From Mobula hypostoma (taxonomy: Eukaryota), in assembly GCF_963921235.1 (NCBI RefSeq), contig NC_086097.1:70682001-70746000 (forward strand): a stretch of 64,000 bases of DNA, written 5' to 3'. Positions 8,245-64,000 of this stretch are shown here, piece by piece. Positions within the stretch are counted from its first letter, which is position 1; every line of letters begins with the position of its first letter. The translations under genes were made by a program, and so were the position numbers. Under the pieces are notes generated by a model. The model had not been told where the DNA came from, did no database searches, and saw only the letters and a program-made list of their open reading frames with translations.

Positions 8245-8720
8245 GTACCAAGAAAGATGGAGGGGCAGCTAGCGTTGAAGAAGTAGGAGACTGCAGAAGA
8301 TTAGGGGAGTGGGCAAAGAAGTGGCAGATAGATTATAGTGTAGGGAAGTGAATAGTCATGCACTGGTAGAAGAAATAAAGACATAGACTATTTTCTAAAC
8401 AGAGAAAATTCAGAAATCAGAAGTGCAAGGGGACTTGGGAGTTGTCCGGCAAGATTCCCTAAACATTAACTTGCAGGTTGAGTCAGTGGTGAGGAAGGAA
8501 AATGTAATGTTAGCATTCATTTCAAAAGGACGAGAATATAAAGTAAAAGGATATAAAGCTGAGGCCTTGTAAGGCATTGGTCAGACCACACTTGGATCAT
8601 TGTGAGCAGTTATCTAAGAGCAATGTGCTGGCATTGGAGAGGGTTCTGAGGAGGTTCAGGAGAATGTTCCCGGGAATGAAGGAATTAAAGTATGAGGAGC
8701 TTTGATGGCTATGGGCCTTT
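8245..8720 (+). mobile_element. CR1 LINE fragment (host of nested insertions; resumes at 11102)
   Basis: Degenerate WAKKWQ / VQGDLGV / LVRPHL...EQL CR1 ORF2 motifs; the GGGCCT..TACTCGCTGGAG sequence is split by the minus-strand CR1. Confidence 0.75.
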
Positions 8721-8723
8721 ATG

Positions 8724-17898: not shown

Positions 17899-18096
17899 AT
17901 GAACGCCGCTCCGGCTCTGCGGCCGCCGAGTCCCGGCTCGCCCCCGTCGCCGACCTCGGGAGCGCCGCGACTCTCCGGCCAGGGCATCTCCTTCTATATT
18001 CAGATCGGCCTGAGTAGGGAACCCGTCATCCTCGAATGCAGCGACTTCTCCCTCGCACATGTCCGGGAAATGGCCTGTTCCATCGTGGATCAAAAG
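17899..18096 (+). CDS. PRKD1: Serine/threonine-protein kinase D1, coding exon 1 (66 codons, phase-0 donor)
   Basis: [12 protein letters not shown]...[38 protein letters not shown] matches the PRKD1 N-terminus (human MSAPPVLRPPSP...[15 protein letters not shown]...[16 protein letters not shown]) better than PRKD2/3; followed by donor AAG|GTAACG at the position where the human first coding exon ends. Confidence 0.93.
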
Positions 18097-18130
18097 GTAA
18101 CGGGACAAAGTTGGCGCGGTTAGCGGGAGT

Positions 18131-19990
18131 GGCGAGGGAGTGAGATGTGAAGTGGGGAAGGGAAAAGAAAGTCAGTGAGAAGAGAACAGGACACGAGAGA
18201 AGGGAGAGAGAGAGAGTGAGGAGAGGAGAGAGAACAGGCGGACGACAGAGAAGTAGGAGGACGGTGGGAAAGGAGAGTAGAGGAGGGAGAATAGAAAAAG
18301 GAAGGAGAGGAAGATAGAAGTAAAAAGAGGAGAGAGGAAAGGAGTAGGAGGGAAGAAAGCGGATGTAAGAGGAGGAGAAGTGGGTGAGGGAGGGGAAGAG
18401 AAGGGTATGAGGAGAGGAGGAGTGAAAGAGGCGGTGAGAGGAGCGGAAGAAAGGAATGAAAGGAAAGACGGGAGGGGAGGAAGGGGTGAGTGTTGAATAC
18501 ATATGGAGCTGAGGTGGAAAATGGAAGATCAAGGGGAGTGTGGGGGAGAGGATGGAGTGTTGTAAAAGTGAAGGATGGAACGTAATGAAATAGGTGAGCG
18601 AAGGTGGGAGGACATCAGTGCAGGGGTTGTTGAAGGAGCAGAGATGAGTGTGTGGAGATAATTGATGGGATAGAGGTAAGGCAGAGTTAGGGAGAGAAGG
18701 GAGGGCATGAAGATGTGGAAGGTAAAGGATGAAATGTGAAAGGATGGTGTGAAAGGAGGCAACGGAGATGAGAAGGTTAATGAGGGAGGGAGCATGATGG
18801 GTGGAGTGAAAGAGAGCTGCAATAGAGGAATGTAACTGGTGAGGAAGGTGAGAGGGGAGGGGGAAGTGATGAATGAGCTGAAGAATTTGAGAAGGAGATG
18901 TGAAGGAATGGAGAGATGCGTGAGATTGAAAGCAGTTGAAATAGGAAGGTCAAAGGATGCAATGGTAGTTGGATTGGGGTGAGGAGAGGAGAGATAGGGA
19001 CGGGTACTGGGTAATGGGAATAGAGAAATGTGAGCAGAATTCATAAAAGGATAGAAGATTGGCTGGTGAGTGAGGAGACATGAGGACATGCAATGTGGCG
19101 GGAGAAGAATGAGAGAAGGGAGAAGGGTGGAGAGAAGATAAAAACGTTTTAAGAGCAGAGGAGGGTGAATGAGTGAGGGTGGTAGGGTGGTAGGGAGGAG
19201 GAAGATGAGGGAGGAGGTAGGAGAGTAAGAGTGAAAAGAAGAGGAATGAGGAATGAGGAGTAGGGTGAAGGAGGGAAGAGGAGAATTTGAGTGAAAGTAG
19301 TAGAGGAAAGGAGGAAGAAATGGGGAAACAGGGACAGAGAGTCAAAAGTGGTTGGTGAATGAGAAGGAGGAAGAGGAGAGGGTAAAGGACTGGGAATTTG
19401 GGAGGAAGACAAGAGGGGAAAGGGGCCATTTGAGAGTGTGAGTAAGAAGATCGAGAGGATGACAGGAGATAAAGATAAGGGAGTGGTGATTAGGAATGGA
19501 TGTTGTGGGAGGGGGAGAAAGATCAGGAATGGAGTGAGATGAAAAGAGAGGAGTGAAGTGGGAAGAGTTGGAGAGAAGAGAATGGATAGGAAGCAATGGG
19601 TAGGAATGGGAAGGCTGATGATGTGGGCTAGAATCAATGTCAGAGAGATGTGGCTAATGGAAATAGAGGGAAAGCTGGAGTGGGAAGGGAGAACAGGAAA
19701 GAAAGGGGATTGAGAATGGATTAGGCCGTAGTGAAATGGGGAACAGATGGTGAATGGAGAATGAGATAGGCAGATAGAGAAGAGAATTAGAGGCAATGGA
19801 GAAGGACTGCAGAGAATGATCTGAGACAGGGGTGTTGACAGGAGGAGAGGGAGGCTCTCAGGGTGGGGATTGTTGGAGGTACTGGGAAACAGTGAAGGTA
19901 ATGGAAAAATGTGTGAGAGGGAAACTATAGGTTCAGGTTAAGAGACAAGGTGAATGGGGAGGGAGACTGAATTAGAAAGAGCAAGGGATA
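18131..19990 (+). repeat. ~1.9-kb purine-rich (G/A) strand-asymmetric low-complexity tract
   Basis: Plus strand is almost devoid of C; produces spurious S/P/L/F-rich minus-strand ORFs. Confidence 0.9.
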
Positions 19991-20759
19991 GGCTGACAAT
20001 AACTTTCAAGCTGTTGATAGTGGTATAACTCAGTAGTGGAGTTTTTACTGTGAAAGAGACTGCTAGAAAGAATGCAGCTTGTGCGGATATGACACAAGTT
20101 CACATTTGTTCTTTTGTGTGTGTTTGAGAATGTCAAGATTTAGTGCAGTTTGCTGTGTGTGTTCTTGTCATTGTCGCTCTGTGAGGCTTGTGAAATAAAC
20201 TCTAGTTATCCTGCTGCTGGTGTCGAGAGGGCTAGCTATCCCAGACCTCCCAGTCAGTGGCTGGATGTGTGGTGCTAGCATTGCAGCTCCTCATAAGGGG
20301 CTTAACTGCAGGTCTCTTCCATGGTGTGCATGTCTATTTGAAGAGTTTTGCAGTTCGTTGTAACAATTGCATTTTGAATCTATGTCATTGTTGTCTTACA
20401 AGGTTTACTGCATTTTAGGAGTTTCAATGTGAAATCGAAATTATGACCCTGCACAGCATTCAGAAAACATAGTTTTTGCAAGTTTTACTTTGAGGCTAAC
20501 CTTTTGTTGAAGGTGTTGTACAGAAATATTGCAGAATTCTTAAAATGGGGTTTGAGAATTCACAATACTTCTGGAAACCCCATGGGTTCAGCTTCGGGTG
20601 AATGTGGGACTGCTTGTGAAGTGTTGGCTTTGTCAGAATTGCGGAACTAATTTCTGCATGAAGTTTGATATTCAAACTTTGACTTTCCACAAAAAGTTTG
20701 TTTTACTTAATAATCAAAATTTGTAGGCAAGTATATTTTGAAGAAGATATAGGGGACTA

Positions 20760-22899: not shown

Positions 22900-24130
22900 T
22901 GTTGTGTGTTTAATTTTTAAGTAATGTTTGAATAATATTGTAAGTATATTGTTTGATTAAGTATTCTTTGTTGTTTCCATAATTCATTACGGGATATGTG
23001 TAAAAGTAGATGAAAAGCATATCTCATTATGCCACCATGTCATAAGTGTGCACCTCGTTACAAATAAAAACAAGCTAAGCACACACATCCCTGGACTCTC
23101 ATGCTTTTCTTTCAATTAGTTTTATGTTATAGAGTTACATAACATAACAGTGGTGACGAGGAAGTTTTAAAGAAACCCGAGACAACTACCTACCTGTTGA
23201 GGAGCAGTGAGACATTTATTAAAAGCAGGCAGAAAATGGACAAAATTCAAGTTCATTAACAGTGAGTACTGGGTAATAATAACAATAGAAATAATTCATT
23301 TTTAAAAAGAGCAGAAATGGCTGGCTGTATCAGAAAGATAAACGTGTTCCGTTGCACTGTGGATAACTGGTTGATATACACTGAGCAAACTGAACATTAT
23401 TTTGAAGTGAATGAAATAGCCAATGAGAATTGAGTACCAGTTTTACTGAGTGCATTGGGTGGAAAAGCATAGAGTTTGCTGAGAAGTTTAACTGCTCCAA
23501 CGCAACCAGCTGAAATAGGCTTTGCTGATATTGTGAAAGTAATGCGGGAACATTTAGATTCATAACCATTGATGATTGCAGAATGCTTTAGGTTTCATAA
23601 GCAAATCAAAAGGAAGGGGAGTTCATTTCATTGTACGTGGGTGAATTGAAGAGGTTGTCTGAGCATTCTTTGTGCAATGATGGGTTTAATGATGCTCTAA
23701 GAGATCATTTGGTTAGTGGAAATGTTCAAAAACGGCTCCCAACTGAAGCGCAACTCACATTTAACAGAGCGGTTGAAATCACTGTGTCAATTGAAACAAC
23801 AGACAGAGAAGCAAATGGGTTACAGTCAGGAATGAAAGTGAGCATGAACAAAATTGCAGTGTCTGGACTTGGGGTTCCCAACCCAGGGTCCATGGACCCT
23901 TCGGTTTAATGGTAGGGGTCCATGGCATAAGATGGCAGGGAACCCCTGGTCAAGATGGAGGCTTGTCTGCTGGACAGGGAAATTGTGTTACTGTTGTGGC
24001 AGGAGCTCACATGTTCCAGACCAATGTAGATTTAAAGGCGAATCTTCCAAAAAATGCAACAAAGTACATGTCGGGCAGACAACAATGGACTGGAGAAGGA
24101 AGAGAAAAAGATGAAAAGTCAAGTTTCAGG
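22900..24130 (+). mobile_element. Gypsy (Mag/K02A2.6-like) 5' LTR + PBS + decayed gag; same family as 31093-37644
   Basis: LTR TGTTG...TAACA at 22900-23149; PBS-like TGGTGACGAGG at 23151; zinc knuckles CYCCGRSSHVPDQC-RFK...CNKV. Confidence 0.85.
23869..23948. mobile_element. ~80-bp hAT-type MITE inserted in Gypsy gag
   Basis: TIRs GGGGTTCCC...GGGAACCCCTG; degenerate 8-bp flanks GTCTGGAC/GTCAAGAT; inverted copy at 40318-40398. Confidence 0.65.
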
Positions 24131-30150: not shown

Positions 30151-33100
30151 TGGCAGAAGTTGTCTGGAATTGAATAAGTTGGTTCAGTAGACATACAGGA
30201 ATTTTGGTTGACTTTAGAAAGCTAGGCTGCTTTCTTTTGGAATGTTTCCATCACACATTAAAGTACGCAGATGTGTAGGTATAATGGCTAAACAGTTCTT
30301 CCTTAGTTCTTGCTTTAAGTAATAGAGTCACTGCTGAAATATCGACTGGAATATATCTTTAAGAAATACAGACTTCTAAGTCTTTTGTAAAGAAGCCTAC
30401 CCAAGAGGAATGGATAAAGGGTTGCATTTGATGAAGTACATGAGGTACCTTCAGTGACCACTGTACAATGTTTGAAGATAAATAGGAAAAATGGGCCACT
30501 GTAAGTTATGCAAATATATTCAGGTAATTTTCTTTTGTGTCATTTCCAGATGAAATGGTGTAGGTTTTCTGTGACTATTGTTCTGCTTGTCAATCTTATA
30601 ACAAACCCACTGAGGAAATTGCCATAACCTTTATGTGGAGTTGTTGATTATATGTTTGAACAAGTCTTCTGTGAAATTATACAGTTTCCATTGTATGCAT
30701 TCAGCATTCAGTAATTTCAAATGGGATTAATGGGATTAATACATAATATTGTGTACCATTAAATCTTGACTGCTTTCTTAACACAATATTGGATAATTCA
30801 AAGCTATTATTGTTTTTTAATGTCTTCTGAACTCATTATGATTAAAATATAATTTCTCCTTTTAGTTAAAAAAACAATGAAAATATTTTAATTTTTGAAA
30901 CTTTTATTTGTGGTTGGCAGTCACATTGTCATGTAGCAATTCCAATTTTTTAAAGGAATTGACTTTTCTGGCCATTGCTTGCAAAAGTAACAGGAAATTT
31001 CATTGATAACTGGTATCTGTAGACTAAATGAAATCTGAATTGCAATATTTACGTAAACATATCTACTCTGCCCAGTTTTATGTCCACATTTTTGATCTGT
31101 ATTTAATATTTCACTAATGTTTAAGTAATATTGTAGATATTTTGTTTGATTAATTGTTCTTGTTTGTTTAAATAATTCATAACAGTTCTATGTAAAAGTA
31201 TGTCATCATGCCACCACATCATATGGGTGCATCTTGCTTAAAGTAAAGACAAATGTACATGAGTTATTTCCCATCTCCATGTTTCCTTTCAATTATTTTT
31301 ATGTTTTTGAGTTAAAAAACATAACAGTAGTGATGAGGTATTTTTAAAACAAACCTGAAATGACGTTCGAGTTTTTAAGAAGTGCAGCAAGAAACAATGG
31401 AGTAAAGAAAAACAGTGCAGCATATGTCTCTTCGGAAGGGAGGGAGAGAAGATGGTTGAGTTTAAAAAAGGGGAAAAAAGGAATAAATTCACAGGTTTAT
31501 ATACAGTGAGTACTGAGTGATAATAATAATAAAATTGCAGAGATGACTAGCTACATTGGAACAATAGATGTATTCAATTGCTCAAGTGATAACTGGGTAT
31601 TGTTTACTGAGCCAATTAAGCAGTATTTTAAAGCAAATGGAATAGCTGATGATAAGCAGGTGCCAATTTTGCTGAGTGTATTTGGTTTAAAGGCATACAG
31701 TTTGCTTAGAAATTTGATTGCTCAAAACAAACCAGCCGAAATGAGCTTTGCTAGCATTTGAAACTAATGCAGGAAGATTTAGAACTGAAGCCATTGTTGA
31801 TTGCAGAACACTTTAGGTTTCATAAGTGGAAGCAAGAGGAAGCAGAGTCCATTTCAGCTACGTGGCTGAATTGAAGAAGTTGTTTGAGCATTGTCTGTTG
31901 AATGGTGAGCTTAATAATGCACCGAGACATTGTTTAGTTTGTGGAATCTTACAAGAAAGCATTCAAACCCTAACCAACATTTAAAAGAACAGTTGAAATT
32001 GCTGTTTCAATGGAAACAGCAGGCGGATGCAATTGAGTTGCTGCATTGTGCGAACATGAACAAAATTGCAATAACAAAACAGAAACCAACCTGGCTGAAC
32101 AATTTTTGTTACTGTTGTGGCAGGGGCTCACATACACCAGACCAATGCAGAATTAAAGGTGAAACTTGCAGAAAATGCAACAAAGTCGGGCACATACTAA
32201 GAACATGTTGGGCAAATAAAAATAAATAGACTGGTCATGGAAGAGATAAAGGTAAAATCAACTTGCGGTTTCAAAAAAGGGTCTGGTTTGCATACTCCTG
32301 ATGAAAAATCTGATAGTAATGAGTGTGACACAGTATTGGGAAGCTTTGAGATTTACTATGTGTAAACTAACAAGAGACAAGTAATATGGCTTGTGCCAGA
32401 AGTGATCAGCAAATTAATTAAAGATTAGAAGTTGGACACTGGCTTGACTGTTTCAGTCATTCCACAAAATGAGTTTGAATGGCATTTCAAAGATACTGAC
32501 CTGTAGCCTGCAAATATCCAACTAAGGACCTACACTGGAGAAAAGATAACTCCTGTGGAAATTACATTTGTAACTGTGAAATACAACAACCAACAAGCCA
32601 CATTGGGCTGGTGTATGATAAAAACAAGAGGACAAGCATTGTGGGGGCGTGATTGGCTGGGACAACTGAAACCACCATTTGCCTGCCAGATCCCTGCATT
32701 AGAGTCAATTGAAAGCTAATTAATAAAGATGATACCACAGCAGTGTTGAATGATGGTGTTGGAGAACTCAAACATATCCAGGGTAAAGTAGTGTTATATA
32801 AAAATGCCACACCCAAGTTTTACAAAGCCCACCTGTGTCCTTATACCATCTGTGATAAAGTAGCCAGTGAGCTAGATTGTATGGAGGCTGAGGATTTCTT
32901 TCCAAGGTTGAATAGAGCCTACGGGCAACACCAGTGGTCCCAGTAGCCAAGAGGAATGGGTCTTTCAGGATCTGTGATGATTTCAAGATCACCATCAACC
33001 CAGTACTGAAAGTTGATCAAAACCCTCTGCACAGGGTAGAGGATATCTTCCTGGACTTAGCTGAGGCCTACCTACAGATGGAGATAGGAGAAGAGTCCAA

Positions 33101-35479
33101 AATATTTCTCACCATAAACACTCACAAATGATTTTATTGATAGGCTTCTTTCAGCAGTAGCATCTGCATCTGCACTCTGACAGAGATCTGTGGAACAGGT
33201 ACTGCAAAGCTGCCCAGGCACTCAGTGTTACCTGACACCATTGTTACTGGTGAGGGTGACATGGAACATCTCCAAAATCTCAACACAATGTTAAAAAGAT
33301 TAAAAGATTATGGGCACAGAGCATGATGCTACGAGTGTGAATACTTTAACCAAGCATCACCTATTGTGGTCACACCATTGACACACAAGTTTATACAGTA
33401 GTGTTGCAAAAATTCAAGCATTGGAGGATACCCCAAGGCTAAAGGGGATGTCATAGTTGTGAGCCTTTTAGAATTTATCAACTACAAGAACTGGTTCCTG
33501 CCAAACCTGGCTACCGTGTTCATTACTACAGATCAGGAAGAAGTGGCAACGGACTTTGAACTGGTTACTACAGATCAGGAAGAAGTGGCAATGGACAAGC
33601 AGTATGAGGTGGCTTTCCAAAAGGCAAAGGAAATGGTGATGTCAGGCACTATACTTGTTATGATCCACATCATCCAGTGAAGCTTGCCTGTGATGCCTTA
33701 CCTTATGTATAGGTGCAGATTGTCACACGTTATGAGTGATGGAAGTGCACACCCCATAGCCTTTGCATCATGCTCCCTTACCACTGCAGAGAAAAATTAC
33801 ACACGAATTGACAGAGAGGCCTTGAGTCAGGTTTTGAGGTGTAAAATATTTCAACCAGTATTGGTATGGGAGAGAGTATACTGTTATGATCATCAACCAC
33901 TAGTGTCCATTTTCAGTCCACAGAAGGATGTTCCACTAACAGTAACAGCACGAATGCAGAGATGGGCCCTGTTTCTTGCAGGACACATTACAAAATTGAC
34001 TTCAAGAGGACAACTAATCACAGAAATGCCAATGGATTGTCCCGTTTACCCTTGGGAAAGGAAATAACTAAAAACTTTATAAAAGAAGACATTCCTCTTG
34101 ATGTATTCTCCCTATTGCAAATCGAAAGTCTCCCTATAACGGCAGAGATGCTTGAAAGGGAAAGCAGAAAAGACCCTGCATTGTCTCAGGTCTACATGAT
34201 CACCTAAAATGGCTGGAATGTGCAACAGAAACTCTAGTTCCCCCATTTTTGCCAGCTTTAGGGTGGACTTGCCCATGTGGGAATTGAGAGTTGTACCACC
34301 CAAGCTGAGAGCTGAAATGCTGGAGGAGTTAACAGTACATGCTGGTCATCCAGGTGTGGTTAAAATGAAAGCATTGGCTTGAAGCTTTGTTTGGTGGTTT
34401 GGGATCAGCAGATCAAACAGCTTGCCATGCTCTGTGTGGGATGCCAAGAGCAGCACCTCTCCATCCCTGGGAATGGCTGGTATTGCCCTGGCAGAGAGTT
34501 CATGTGGATTTTGCTGGACCATTCATGGGCACAAATTTCTTGGTAGTAGTGGGTGCAGCTACAAAGTGGCCAGGAGTGTTCCCAATCACCACCACTATAG
34601 CCTCACACACTTTTGATATGGTTAGAAGCCTCTTTGAAGGACTGGTGTTCCAGATCATTCATTAGGTGACAACAGACCACAGTTTGTTGTGGAACAGTTT
34701 TAGTCGTTCTTGAAAATGAATGGAATATGAGATATTACATTTGCACCATACCAGCTAGCTACAAATAGTTTGGCGAAAAGATTTGTCCCGAGTCTAAAGA
34801 ACATTCTACGACCATTCTCAGCAGACACACTACATTGACACTGAATCAGAAACTCGCTGATTTACTCCTTGCATATTGCGATACAGCACACCCCACAACC
34901 AACAAATCAGCTATGCTGTCTGGGTCGTCCCTTGTATTTACGCGTGAATCTCCACAAACCCAATCTCAGAAAGAGTATGCAAGGCAAACAGCTGAGACAA
35001 ATTGAGGGCTTCTGTAACAAGGAGGCTCAATATTTCACTCCTGGCCATCAGTCTTGGCAAGGGACGACAGAGGTGATCAAAAGTCGGTTCTCGGAAATAT
35101 CAAGGATGGAACTGGACCACTTTCCTACACATAGAGATTGTGACTGATATCACCTGGAGACGACACAGTGATCAGTGGAGAGCAGAGTCAACTGATGGAG
35201 AGGAAAGGTGTCCAGAGCCATCGGACCATTTCCTGCAGTCCCAGAGTCAACTCCTACAACCACCACAGAGGAGGCCTCAGAAGCTGAGATGGTTTCAAAG
35301 CCACAAGTTTCACCTTCTTGTCAGGATAGATGTTACCCCACAAGAGTAAGAAAGTCTTCACAGCAATTAAATCTTTAGGCCTGAATGGGACAATGTAAAG
35401 TTTACTATGCTGTGGATGACTATATATAGTATAGTTCTATTATATAGTATATATCTCTGCAGAAATGTATTCTATATTG

Positions 35480-60140: not shown

Positions 60141-60267
60141 ACTCAACCAGCCATTTTATCTCACAGCTGTACATCTCCTTGTTGCCATAGCATGTATATG
60201 AAGGCCCTGTTCACATGTTGTACGACTTACAAAAAAATGTACAATTAGTCATAGAGTGCGTTGTGAC

Positions 60268-60722
60268 TGTCATCGAAAGCCACCAGAGACACACGCAGCT
60301 GGTGGTATGAAAGCCTTTAATCGACACATACAAGCTGACGGTATTTGGAATCACTCTGGATAGTGGCTCCCTGGCCCAAAATTACATCACGTTTTGATAT
60401 GCTAAAGATCAAAACAATGGCAGAACAATTTCTGTAGTTACAATGTATTCATAATGCTTCCTTTGAGTTGCATATAATTTTCAGATACCTAGATATTCAC
60501 ACCAACACTCTAGACACCCTAAATTAAATGTTAATCTCTGAGCTCCATTTGCGTATATGCAGACATCTCAGGTTAATAAGGTATTCTGGGGTTTCTTGAT
60601 TTGCAATCGACTTCAGTCTGCAGCTTCAAGAAGACCATTGCTCTGAGCTGCATTTTAAATTCAATCTACAATCCACATTCAGATCTGAAGGCTTGTTGCT
60701 GTTGAAATTAATATTTGCTACA
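60268..60722 (-). mobile_element. 3' LTR (455 bp) of retrovirus-like element
   Basis: Minus strand TGTAG...TGACA; preceded by PPT-like GGAGGTTAGGAA (60723-60734); ATTAAA ~50 nt from the 3' end. Confidence 0.75.
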
Positions 60723-63455
60723 TTCCTAACCTCCAGAATATGCCCCAACAGTACCTCCTCTCGGTCCTCCTGGACAAAAATAATTTTGTTCTGGTAAAGG
60801 CCAAACTTTAAGGAGGGTTGGATCAAGTAGGGTAGTTAAAGTGCCCTGCACTTCAGCCTGTCATATCCCTATGGGCATCAACATTTATGCTGTCATCCCT
60901 AATGACTACCTACAAGACTCGAAGCAGAGATTGTTCCAGAAATTTGACCGACAATCTTTAAAATGCAGCTTTGTCATTCGTATGCCTTTTGCTGCCCTCC
61001 TTGCTGGCTGATTGCGGTTTAATCACATTCTTTATCTTCTTCCCTTCATTCTCTGATAGCCACAACTCAGCGGTGGCTATCAGTGGTCAGGGGCACCAGC
61101 AAACTAATTGTATCAGGCTCACAGGCAATAGTTCGCACTCCATGCCATGACAAAAGAAGTCCAGAATCCGATAACCAGCCTCTCAGGCCCTCTCGTCGAT
61201 GTACAGGAGGTGTCTCTATTTGAATGAGTGCAAGGGCCTCACCCTGGTGGCAATCAGTTGATCACTGGCCCAACCACAGAAAGGGCCCAGCATGTTTGTA
61301 TTCACTCCCCTTTCAGGCTGGGATGACTGCCTTCAGACACTGTGTGTAATTTCTTCTCTTCCTCAGTCTGCCATGCCATCGACATTGTGGAAACTGATGT
61401 CTGTGCTGTAGCTCGGATCCCTTCCCATCTATTTTCCCCAATATCTTTCTATTCTGATCTACCTTCGAGAACCAGCTTTCATTACAAAGCACAGCTACCA
61501 TTCCACTCTTAACACGTCGTTCACAGCTCTCTCGGTGTCTTCCACATTTACGTTTATTGTGGGCCTGCTTCTGTCAGGCGTGCTCAGATCTGTTGCAGCC
61601 GGCCAGTGTTCATCACTTAGATTCTCTGCAATGACACTGCTACCGGGTAAACTTGATCCCTTGCTCTGTCTGTGAGGGCGACAAGAAGGTGAGTCACACG
61701 GTTTAATCCGAGTCTGCCACTGGCTTCCGTGTCGGGTCTGCACACAATCATAGGTGTCATTTGTCAGAAGCACCACCTGTGGTTCTAATCATCCGGGAGC
61801 AAACCTTGCCTTTTCAGGCAGCTCGCTCATCGTGACGTGAATCATCTGGGTGTGAGAGGACTATTTTCTTTCCCTCCGAATTCTCTGATCAGAAATACGT
61901 TGTTGCTGTTTTGCTCTGTCCCTCAATTCATTAATCTGAATTAATTAATCTCATCGCCATACCGTTTTAGTAAATTGGGTCCAGTAATTTCTTCCTCTTC
62001 AATTTCTGTCATCTCATGTTCTTCTGTTGCTATCTTTGCCCATTGATCTGCACTGTCATTCCCTTTCTGCATCTTACTTTCCTCTTTCTGGTGTTTCTTT
62101 ACTTTAATTGCTGCTACCTCTGCAGGCAGCTGCACTACTTCTTTCAGCTCTTTACTGTGTTTGGCCCTGACCCTTGGGACCTTCCGACATGATTCATGAT
62201 CATCGTTCCATTTCCTACCCTGCTTGGGCCTGCTATCTCTCTGTAGGCCACGTTGTCTAGTCTGTGGATCATAGATGTTCCCTGGTCCTGTCTTGTCTAT
62301 GTTATTTCTCCTTTTCCTAAATCTATGATAGCACCTGCCTTACTTTGTGTATTTATCCCCAGGTTAGAGCTCTCATTGTTTGGACACACCCAAAAATCTG
62401 CAAGCACCTGCACTCCCTCTAACTCAAGAAACTGAGGCTCACTCCTCTGCCCTCAAAATTTCACCTCCTACATTGGTAACGTAAACCTCCTCCCCAGTCA
62501 TGAGCAAGGGTAGATTGGTTATCAATACTAATGACCCTGTGTTCGCTAACACTACACATTGCTGGCCTCCCAATAAACTTCTTGTGTACATCCGTGGATG
62601 ACCACCATTGGCAATAGAGACTGCTGCTGCCATTAGTCTGACCTGGATGCTAACCTTACCGCCTCCATAATCGGGTCAGCAGGCAAATCAGAAAGAGTGA
62701 GCACTGCTGTGGATTCTGCCCACTTTGGTGAGTGATTCTCACACCTTCCCCCCCTTATTAGCCATTGTGTCCAGCCAAGAGCTGAGAGGACACAGCTGGA
62801 ACTAATAATCTCCTTTACCCTCCCACGTCTATTCCAGCATTTCCTTGCTACGTGCCCCAGTTGCTGCCACACAAAGCGAGTCCTCTGTGACTTCACATAC
62901 ACTACAGCAGCTTTACGACTTCTCTGCCCCCTCTTCTGGTCCATCTCCCCGGACCATGATGCTATTGTGGGGTAGATCAATCCCACTGCTATTTCCAAAT
63001 GGATAACTTTCTGGTGGGCTGACGTCAGGCCTTGTTCAGCTTTTTCAGGACAATCCCTCACTGGATTGTCCAGCCCTGAGTATTCCTCATATTCTCGATA
63101 TTTGCACTCTGCAAAATCCATGGCAGGTCCATCAGCTCTCTGAACCACTGACATTATGGTTCCCCAGTTACTCTCACCTCACTTCCCCATTAAAGAAGCA
63201 ATATCTCTCTTCAGTGCTGGCATTCCCGGAAGTTGTTCATGCACCATCCTGCCCTCCCTGGGAAATACTGTCCCACATGTTCACCGAGCACATTGCTTTT
63301 ACCAGCACATGTGTATTTTTGGGGTGCATCTGATGAATTTCAATCGTTTGCTCGAGCTTGCGCCAGAACTTTGTATTCCTGGAGGCAACATTAAGTGAGG
63401 GTAGCTCTGACAAATTGCTCTGTTTCTCCCCAGTGGTGAAGGGTTTATAGAATTC
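60723..63455 (-). mobile_element. Internally deleted endogenous-retrovirus-like element: gag CA/NC, protease, RNase H C-terminus, IN C-terminus, unknown 3' region
   Basis: YKPFTTGEKQSNLSELPSL (CA N-term-like, ~63450-63395); NWGTIMSVVQRADGPAMDFAECKYREYEEYSGL (MHR-like); QLGHVARKC (Zn-knuckle remnant); VLANTGS...FWVCP..SNLG (protease); QLPAEVAAIKVKKHQK....KGNDSADQWAKIA (retroviral-type RH); FAPG*LEPQVVLLTNDT...W.TRIKP (IN C-term). Confidence 0.75.
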
Positions 63456-63469
63456 ATTTTTCTGAATTC

Positions 63470-64000
63470 CATGAATATAGGCCCAGAACCATCAAACGCC
63501 GTTCATATGACAAGCTATCCAATCCTGGAATCATTTTTGTGAACCTTCTTTAAACCCTCTCCAGTTTCAGCACATCCTTTCAAAGATAAGGGGCCCAAAA
63601 CTGCTCACAATACTCCAAGGGAGGCCTCACCTGTGCTTTATAAAGACTCAGCATTACATCCTTGCTTTTATATTCTAGTCCTCTTGAAATGAAAGCTGTC
63701 ATCGTATTTACCTTCCTCACCACAGTCTCAACCTGCAAATGAACTTTCAGGGAATCCTGCACAAGGACTCCCAAATCCCTTTGCTCCTATGTTTTTTTGT
63801 ATTTTCTCTTCATTTAGAAAATAGACAGCCCTTCCATTTCTTCTACCAAAGTGTATTCCCAACACTGTATTCAATCTGCAAACTTTGCAACAAAGCCATC
63901 AATTCCATCATCTAAATCATTGACAAATAATATAAAAAGAATTGGCCCCAACACAGGTGCCTGTGAAACACCACTAGTCACCGGCAACCAACCAGAAAAA
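63470..64000 (-). mobile_element. CR1 LINE fragment, runs off the window
   Basis: ORF 63580-63774 AFISRGLEYKSKDVMLSLYKAQVRPPLEYCEQFWAPYL; reverse VTSGVSQAPVLGP at the window end. Confidence 0.88.

What the first reader, a model, noticed from the sequence alone, without database searches (positions are those of the whole stretch)
60268..63455. Internally deleted, non-autonomous endogenous-retrovirus-like element in PRKD1 intron 1
Seen on the minus strand, in retroviral order: a CA N-terminal motif YKPFT..E...L.ELP, an MHR-like NW..I.SV.Q...A.DFAE.KY..YEEYSGL, a Zn-knuckle remnant, an aspartic protease whose catalytic motif has decayed to ANTGS, then only the C-terminal half of RNase H (LPAEVAAIKVKKHQK..KGNDSADQWAK) and only the IN C-terminal motif, then PPT and LTR. 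Established: an H...GN..AD RNase H of this form is typical of vertebrate retroviruses (compare MLV LPKRLSIIHCPGHQK..RGNRMADQAARKA) and differs from the Gypsy NHRNANGLSRL form seen at ~34016 in this window. Inference: this is a gamma/epsilon-like or otherwise basal ERV derivative that lost RT and the IN core but kept gag-pro. It could be a trans-mobilised lineage; chondrichthyan ERVs are sparsely described.
Basis: partly seen in the sequence, partly recalled or inferred. Interest (0 to 1): 0.72.

Follow-up and report, generated by a model that had tools for sequence, protein, structure and literature searches.

The report
Shortened fossil retrovirus family in fish
This is a dead, shortened copy of an old fish retrovirus that lost its own copying enzymes and probably spread by borrowing them from intact relatives, a known trick seen here in a little-studied animal group.

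Summary
The element is real: a decayed ERV remnant on the minus strand (63453 to ~60259), antisense in the intron after a PRKD1-type first exon. Order: capsid, zinc-knuckle remnant, protease, RNase H C-half, integrase C-end, ~0.93 kb with no env hit, PPT, 3' LTR. Against an intact relative, ~1.7 kb (RT, tether, RNase H N-half) and ~0.85 kb (integrase zinc finger and core) are missing.

It is neither gamma/epsilon-like nor Gypsy. All six fragments score best against a fish/shark/turtle ERV lineage that, compared by eye, includes whale shark rh_ty_ERV4 (clade Huo, Xu 2018). Its deep placement is unresolved.

Contigs from three organisms show a multi-copy family. At least one clearly paralogous contig crosses the first deletion (2 to 5 contigs, depending on where the junction is placed), and three differing contigs cross the second. 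So the deletions are not private to this copy, and spread in trans is likely. What share of copies carries them, and the helper element, are not shown. A LINE fragment abuts mid-gag, so no 5' LTR, PBS or TSD can be checked. It is a new member of a known kind (compare IAP 1Δ1, ETn, BHIKHARI).

The parts
63454..64000 (-). High-copy LINE fragment (CR1 type by recall), cut short at its 3' side and joined directly to mid-gag; not part of the ERV
   Evidence: blastn to another LINE piece at 8364-8722, 72%; summed depth ~6e5 and loose ends at 63472 where other LINE copies continue; junction crossed by organism B contig record 23 (63197-63531, 4 differences)
63240..63453 (-). Gag capsid N-terminal part; the 160-190 residues upstream in relatives are absent
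   Evidence: 37-44% identity to P0002/3/4/5/7/8/9; score 148 vs shuffled maximum 51
62633..63178 (-). Gag capsid C-terminal domain (MHR region) and decayed zinc knuckles; a frameshift and stops separate it from the upstream piece
   Evidence: 42% to P0001; the matching region of relative P0007 (residues 271-361) folds as a capsid CTD, Z 10.3, rmsd 2.8, 83 aligned to MLV 6gza; relatives carry zf-CCHC
62246..62627 (-). Aspartic protease in two frames, catalytic motif decayed, one stop
   Evidence: 51% to P0001; P0155 E 1.6e-14; profile match reaches 62246
62153..62245 (-). Probable protease-RT linker and first RT residues, then junction J1 (best fit ~62157-62153; safe interval 62246-62162); open frame from 62339 into RNase H; ~580 codons (~1.7 kb) missing
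   Evidence: Linker match is weak: 6-163 of 1000 shuffles reach the score, against 552-698 of 1000 for the RNase H centre; segment chosen after inspection; size from P0158 landmarks; ORF 61941-62339
62001..62162 (-). RNase H C-terminal half
   Evidence: profile i-E 6e-10; P0158 47%
61941..62019 (-). Interval holding junction J2 (RNase H to integrase C-end); ~280 codons (~0.85 kb: integrase zinc finger and core) missing
   Evidence: landmarks in P0158; position inside the interval unresolved (107-195 of 1000 shuffles reach the integrase-side scores)
61696..61941 (-). Integrase C-terminal helix and C-terminal motif, with stops
   Evidence: P0157/P0158/P0160 E 7e-8 to 5e-7; P0014 score 52, 0 of 500 shuffles
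60763..61695 (-). ~0.93 kb 3' region shared by the family; no recognisable env
   Evidence: summed depth 142-2687 in X1 bins; no listed hit from SnRV, WDSV or REV env here, none from Pfam
60754..60762 (-). Polypurine tract candidate, 3 nt before the LTR
   Evidence: one of five purine runs of 9 nt or more in 60200-61800; chosen because paralogous LTR contigs start at 60750-60753
60259..60750 (-). 3' LTR, ~492 nt, TG start, last base non-canonical, poly(A)-type hexamer near 60320
   Evidence: sequence; X9 records 24, 25, 26 stop matching at 60260, 60753, 60750
17899..18096 (+). Host PRKD1-type first coding exon; the ERV lies antisense, downstream of it
   Evidence: Pfam PF25525 above cutoff; GT donor at 18097

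Best explanation
A dead copy of a non-autonomous subfamily of a basal fish/shark/turtle ERV lineage (clade Huo of Xu et al. 2018). SHOWN: it kept gag-pro, two pol stubs, PPT and LTR; it lost ~1.7 kb and ~0.85 kb of pol; the family is multi-copy; other copies share the junctions; the locus, with its LINE/gag junction, predates the split of organisms A and B. INFERRED: a parent provirus lost RT, tether, integrase core and probably env, most likely by template jumps during reverse transcription and possibly in steps (J1 first). Its RNA kept the cis signals and was reverse-transcribed and integrated by enzymes from an intact relative. Keeping gag-pro and an in-frame J1 may have helped its own RNA get packaged, as reported for IAP 1Δ1. 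This copy then gathered stops and frameshifts, and a later deletion joined a LINE to mid-capsid. It most likely does nothing today.
For: One search lists 31 records out of about 64,000 pieces. J1: two records cross the whole safe interval with 31+ letters each side: X5 record 21 (62000-62327, 81% identical, while organism B's own copy of this locus is 97.5-98.8%, records 19, 22, 23, so record 21 is a paralog) and X15 record 12 (61717-62344, 90%). With J1 at ~62155, 5 of the 6 listed non-self records overlapping 62140-62250 cross it; the sixth ends at its contig end. J2: three overlapping, differing organism E records (12, 13, 14; 84-90%) cross the whole interval. 53-83 distinct X1 contigs carry another letter at positions 61383-61640, 62298-62319 and 63114-63129; this locus's own contigs have depth ~16. 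Lineage; rh_ty_ERV4. Precedent: PMC6466679 passages.
Against: The listed records are the longest ones, so they over-represent junction-crossers; the share of copies with each deletion is unknown. Four records that cross J1 (6, 15, 20, 21) stop matching at 62000-61952 with 61-146 letters left over, so J2 may be absent or placed differently in them. Record 13 has 847 unmatched letters upstream of 62098 and may lack J1. Record 12 could be the orthologous locus in organism E. No paralog was seen with its own flanks or TSD, and no helper element was found. J1's exact position rests on a weak, after-the-fact match.
Confidence: 0.7

Rival explanations
1. The family spread mainly as intact proviruses. 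Only J1 (or neither junction) marks a small deleted branch, and J2 and the other losses arose copy by copy afterwards.
For: Records 6, 15, 20, 21 leave the alignment inside or near the J2 interval; summed depth dips to ~140 at 61835-61953; many other skips (64-395 nt among those listed) appear in the joints table.
Against: Three differing organism E contigs cross J2, and record 12 crosses both junctions. Independent deletions would rarely share breakpoints.
Confidence: 0.18
2. The deleted form was multiplied as DNA (segmental duplication or gene conversion), not by reverse transcription in trans.
For: No junction-bearing paralog was seen with an unrelated flank; contigs are short.
Against: Paralogous LTR contigs stop matching exactly at the LTR ends (records 24-26), and copies differ by 10-19%, as expected of separate old insertions.
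Confidence: 0.08
3. A gamma/epsilon (class I) ERV derivative.
For: RNase H stub scores 84-89 against class I-type groups; best PDB RT match of P0003 is MLV-type, E ~1e-62; the RT+tether tree puts the clade next to class I at 93/94, unstarred.
Against: Gamma+epsilon form their own clade without these rows (100/99); both gag pieces and the integrase stub score at shuffle level against class I.
Confidence: 0.03
4. A Gypsy element or a lokiretrovirus.
For: Relatives carry a Gypsy-like RNase H domain after RT, but this is the tether that retroviruses and lokiretroviruses share (PMC7947760).
Against: A position sister to all other retroviruses is rejected (AU p 0.020); relatives have a second RNase H; the stub scores 41 against Gypsy and 53 against foamy, at shuffle level, whereas Loki RNase H groups with foamy. 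No labelled Loki sequence was in my trees.
Confidence: 0.01

Closest known systems
Whale shark rh_ty_ERV4 and neighbours (An_an_ERV1, Ch_my_ERV12, Ma_te_ERV13, Ch_pi_ERV20), clade Huo, Xu et al. 2018, PMC6001957
   Same: By eye, the protease start, the linker and the RT motifs match P0001/P0012/P0013 and the window's protease. The label order in the S2 Fig text puts them after SnRV and before the foamy block (the drawn tree was not seen).
   Different: rh_ty_ERV4 has RT. This element lacks RT, tether and integrase core. No deleted subfamily is mentioned in the passages read.
Snakehead retrovirus (L028, named) and CmiERV lineage I (Han 2015, PMC4422223)
   Same: SnRV is the best named reference for P0001 and P0003 and for the RT core; a joint clade is not rejected (AU p 0.071).
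   Different: Not recovered together in either tree; the window's fragments score at or near shuffle level against SnRV.
Mouse IAP 1Δ1 and ETn/MusD (PMC6466679 passages); deer mouse non-autonomous ERVK (PMC10089650 passages)
   Same: Shared internal deletion, spread with proteins supplied in trans; 1Δ1 keeps a gag-pol fusion ORF that acts in cis.
   Different: Those are class II mammalian elements, and the mouse ones are still active; this one is of a basal lineage, old and dead, with two pol deletions that leave stubs.
Zebrafish BHIKHARI Bik-1/Bik-2 (bioRxiv 10.1101/2024.03.25.586437, passages)
   Same: Fish non-autonomous ERV families that keep gag and need a partner.
   Different: Loki-related, gag only, with intact and functional ORFs; here gag is broken, and protease plus pol stubs remain.

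Membership tests
Retroviridae-derived ERV | gag-pro-pol order with integrase after RNase H | tested here: met
Retroviridae-derived ERV | Dual RNase H (tether plus second RNase H) | tested here: met
   Relatives P0155/P0158 have both; the window stub aligns to the second one; the tether itself is deleted here
Retroviridae-derived ERV | RT groups with retroviruses, not Metaviridae | tested here: met
   By proxy, since the element has no RT: relatives' RT+tether inside the 100/100 retroviral side; AU p 0.020 against a sister-to-all position
Retroviridae-derived ERV | env gene | tested here: inconclusive
   No hit in 60763-61695; no close env relative was available; the region is too short for a whole env
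Retroviridae-derived ERV | Two LTRs, PBS, TSD | tested here: inconclusive
   3' LTR and PPT present; 5' end replaced by a LINE fragment; DNA beyond 64000 not available
Class I (gamma/epsilon) | RT inside the gamma+epsilon clade | tested here: not met
   (proxy RTs)
Clade Huo (SnRV-related, class III) | RT clusters with SnRV and ERV-L | tested here: inconclusive
   Polytomy or next to class I; AU p 0.071; no ERV-L reference in the trees; the link to rh_ty_ERV4 is by eye
Lokiretrovirus | RT sister to all other retroviruses | tested here: not met
   AU p 0.020, with no labelled Loki row
Lokiretrovirus | env like the Mononegavirales fusion protein | tested here: inconclusive
   no Pfam hit on the decayed frames
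Metaviridae (Gypsy) | Single Gypsy-type RNase H; RT in Metaviridae | tested here: not met
Non-autonomous ERV subfamily | Several copies share the same deletion junctions | tested here: met
   J1 crossed by 2 (safe interval) to 5 records, J2 by 3; the list is biased to long pieces
Non-autonomous ERV subfamily | Independent insertions (own flanks/TSDs); at least five full-length gap-free copies (criterion of PMC10089650) | not testable with these tools
   no genome held
Non-autonomous ERV subfamily | Autonomous partner with the same LTR in the genome | not testable with these tools
   no genome held; protein searches gave intact Pol only from other or unnamed hosts

The most novel reading that the evidence does not exclude
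A long-lived parasitic ERV lineage in cartilaginous fish that outnumbered its helper, in which the in-frame gag-pro-stub fusion was selected for cis activity (IAP 1Δ1-like, arisen independently), derived from a basal retroviral lineage that may be the sister group of class I rather than part of the SnRV group.
Probability: 0.15. Interest if true: 0.55.

Novelty: new member of a known kind. Interest (0 to 1): 0.3.

Why it matters
ERV surveys that fish with RT or Pol (Han 2015, as read) would largely miss a family that has deleted RT, so such families may hide much of the ERV content of cartilaginous fish. It extends the helper/parasite pattern known from mice and zebrafish to a basal retroviral lineage, and the orthologous insertion gives a minimum-age marker. 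There is no sign that this copy has a function or affects the host kinase gene.

Tried and rejected
No whole genome is held, so copies, flanks and the region beyond 64000 could not be examined. Pfam on the three frames and five fragments: no relevant hit. PDB sequence search with the RNase H ORF: none. Word-seeded homolog searches limited to longer proteins, with the gag ORF and with P0001: none (weak evidence). ESM Atlas: an RNase H lead at 0.86 only, nothing for 61498-61788. The search for related loci in viral and metagenome contigs: nothing (one search found no usable pattern). A scan meant to fetch ERV-L references gave 3 loci that I did not examine. The 3' end of SnRV could not be fetched, so only L028 1-9132 was compared. 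No RNA holder listed; X9 is only guessed to be RNA, so no claim on expression is made. Summed depth is not used as a copy number. My first placement of J1 at 62244 (note) was dropped. P0006 (FG-GAP repeats) was dropped as a chance hit: 1 of the 8 hits. Foldseek gave no match at E<=0.001 for the P0007 model (best: MLV capsid, 1.0e-3). No tRNA gene in the window. Earlier findings: nothing by sequence or words; one other element by place. Literature searches (listings only unless stated) showed no paper describing a deleted ERV subfamily in sharks or rays. The library lacks most subscription journals; Repbase and Dfam were not searched; the supplements of PMC4422223 and PMC7947760 were listed but not read, and bioRxiv supplements are closed; any of these could already hold this family.

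Full report
OBSERVATION. Pfam does not see the decayed frames. A phmmer search of 1.84 billion representatives with one frame gave 8 hits: 7 Gag-like proteins, three of them with zf-CCHC above cutoff plus one with it in P0001's domain list, and one FG-GAP chance hit that I dropped. Named ones come from Mobula hypostoma, Caretta caretta, Heterodontus francisci and Pimephales promelas. P0001 (Mobula) aligns over capsid C-end, zinc knuckles and protease at 42-51% (E 2.6e-45). A model of the relative P0007 (mean pLDDT 56.5) matches capsid C-terminal domains over residues 271-361 (MLV 6gza: Z 10.3, rmsd 2.8, 83 aligned; PEG10 and Arc score alike, so this shows fold, not family). That region aligns to window 63235-62837. 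The host exon at 17899-18096 hits Pfam Ubiquitin_PRKD1_N above cutoff, and no later-exon motif was found, so the element lies antisense in the first intron. The paralog name PRKD1 is from recall. A cartilaginous-fish host is inferred from the nearest named relatives and was not tested.

ANATOMY. A search with the RT-tether region of P0003 gave 71 proteins, and cluster look-ups gave fuller ones, including a Mustelus asterias member. The 1166-aa Pol P0158 has RT, tether, a second RNase H, integrase zinc finger and core. It aligns to the window only at protease (62446-62321), RNase H C-half (62153-62019) and integrase C-end (61938-61714). From the protease end to the RNase H stub, the relative has 629 residues and the window 146 nt; from the RNase H end motif to the integrase helix, 325 residues against 128 nt. 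So about 1.7 kb and 0.85 kb are missing. J1 lies between 62246 and 62162. The stretch 62243-62156 resembles the protease-RT linker and RT start weakly (6, 8, 24, 25 and 163 of 1000 shuffles reach the five scores) and the RNase H centre not at all (552-698 of 1000). The segment was picked after inspection, so J1 near 62155 is a best fit, not a proof. The frame 62339-61944 is open across it. J2 lies between 62019 and 61941 and is not resolved further. About 0.93 kb follows with no env match, then a short purine tract at 60762-60754 and an LTR of about 492 nt whose ends are marked by paralogous contigs. At the 5' side a LINE fragment, itself cut short, abuts mid-capsid at 63454/63453. A deletion therefore removed the LINE's 3' end and an unknown part of the ERV; a 5' half may or may not survive beyond the window.

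LINEAGE. Reference retroviruses came from viral contigs, eight of them named by exact look-up, among them SnRV = L028; the labels of the other reference rows are my own assignment from recall and similarity. In a 63-row RT tree, P0003, P0012, P0013, P0014, P0016, P0017 and P0018 form a clade (96/95) in an open fork with the SnRV group and with foamy+Gypsy; gamma+epsilon (with class II nested among them) form a 100/99 clade without it (the tool warned of long branches meeting). In a 29-row RT+tether tree rooted on Gypsy (class II, caulimoviruses and four of the eight Gypsy rows left out), the clade (94/93) sits next to class I at 93/94, unstarred. AU tests: union with SnRV and the frog rows is not rejected (p 0.071); sister to all other retroviruses is rejected (p 0.020). 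Each of the window's six fragments scores best against this clade (148, 258, 140, 97, 97, 101; shuffled maxima 46-56). That is partly circular for the two gag pieces and the protease N-half, whose hits were found with the window itself, but not for the other three. Han 2015 (PMC4422223, part 1 of 2 read) reports an SnRV-related lineage in elephant shark. Lokiretroviruses (PMC7947760, parts 1-2 of 4) have a foamy-type RNase H and are not listed there for cartilaginous fish.

IS THE DELETION SHARED? Sixteen runs from five coded organisms hold part of the stretch; four were laid at 80% likeness. This locus's own contigs in X1 have depth ~16; internal bins sum to 141-2687, and 53-83 distinct contigs carry another letter at several positions, so the family is multi-copy (depth is not a copy number). 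Organism B has contigs 97.5-98.8% identical (records 19, 22, 23), and record 23 crosses the LINE/gag junction, so insertion and truncation predate the A/B split. Only 31 records of about 64,000 pieces are listed, the longest preferred. For J1, X5 record 21 (81%, hence a paralog) and X15 record 12 (90%, paralog or ortholog) cross the whole safe interval. With J1 near 62155, X1 record 6 (84.5%), X5 record 20 (83.5%) and X15 record 15 (88%) cross too: 5 of the 6 non-self records overlapping 62140-62250, the sixth ending at its contig end. For J2, X15 records 12, 13 and 14 overlap, differ from the window to different degrees, and cross the whole interval. Against a simple picture: records 6, 15, 20 and 21 stop at 62000-61952 with 61-146 letters unmatched, record 13 has 847 unmatched letters upstream of 62098, depth dips at 61835-61953, and many further skips are listed. 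'Unique to this copy' is refuted, but the family may mix J1-only, J1+J2 and intact forms.

MECHANISM. An element without RT and integrase core cannot copy itself. Shared junctions in dispersed, 10-19% diverged copies are best explained by one deletion event each, followed by spread with enzymes supplied in trans. It kept the cis signals that can be checked (LTR, PPT) and gag-pro. This parallels IAP 1Δ1, where a deletion-made fusion ORF acts in cis, and ETn (PMC6466679 passages), deer mouse ERVK subfamilies (PMC10089650 passages) and zebrafish BHIKHARI (bioRxiv 10.1101/2024.03.25.586437 passages). Template switching as the cause, the helper, the loss of env and any cis role of the fusion are inferred. 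This copy has stops or frameshifts in gag, protease, linker and integrase stub, a decayed protease active site, and low CpG in the gag-to-RNase H part (observed/expected 0.16-0.31); it is a fossil.

VERDICT. Observation confirmed; interpretation partly supported. It works like a non-autonomous ERV and very probably belongs to a published basal ERV lineage. A deleted subfamily in this host group did not turn up in eight literature searches (PMC10435555 and bioRxiv 10.1101/2025.06.08.657570 read as passages only), with the gaps named under Tried and rejected. New member of a known kind; interest 0.3.

Noticed in passing
window 32100-34500 (+): Decayed Gypsy element with two zinc knuckles near 32107-32214 and a Gypsy RNase H at 33681-34064; no RT was evident in the frames printed for 33300-34500.
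   Followed up: partly
window 23860-24080 (+): A second Gypsy-like zinc-knuckle stretch resembling the one at 32107 (weak tblastn hits).
   Followed up: no
window 60645-60763: Summed depth here (32,000 in X1) far exceeds the rest of the LTR, with a frequent loose end at 60690: solo LTRs, a variant LTR type, or another repeat sharing this stretch.
   Followed up: no
window 60816-61212: Several different skips in other copies end at exactly 61212, suggesting a deletion hot spot or variable segment in the 3' region.
   Followed up: no
window 18100-20000: Long purine-rich low-complexity tract (GC skew above 0.7) right after the PRKD exon.
   Followed up: no
P0003, P0009: These predicted gene models from a shark and a minnow also appear to lack protease or part of RT relative to P0158; could be annotation splicing or further deleted forms.
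   Followed up: no
P0021: An unnamed Pol groups with foamy viruses in both trees (97/80 and 96/93) on a much shorter branch.
   Followed up: no
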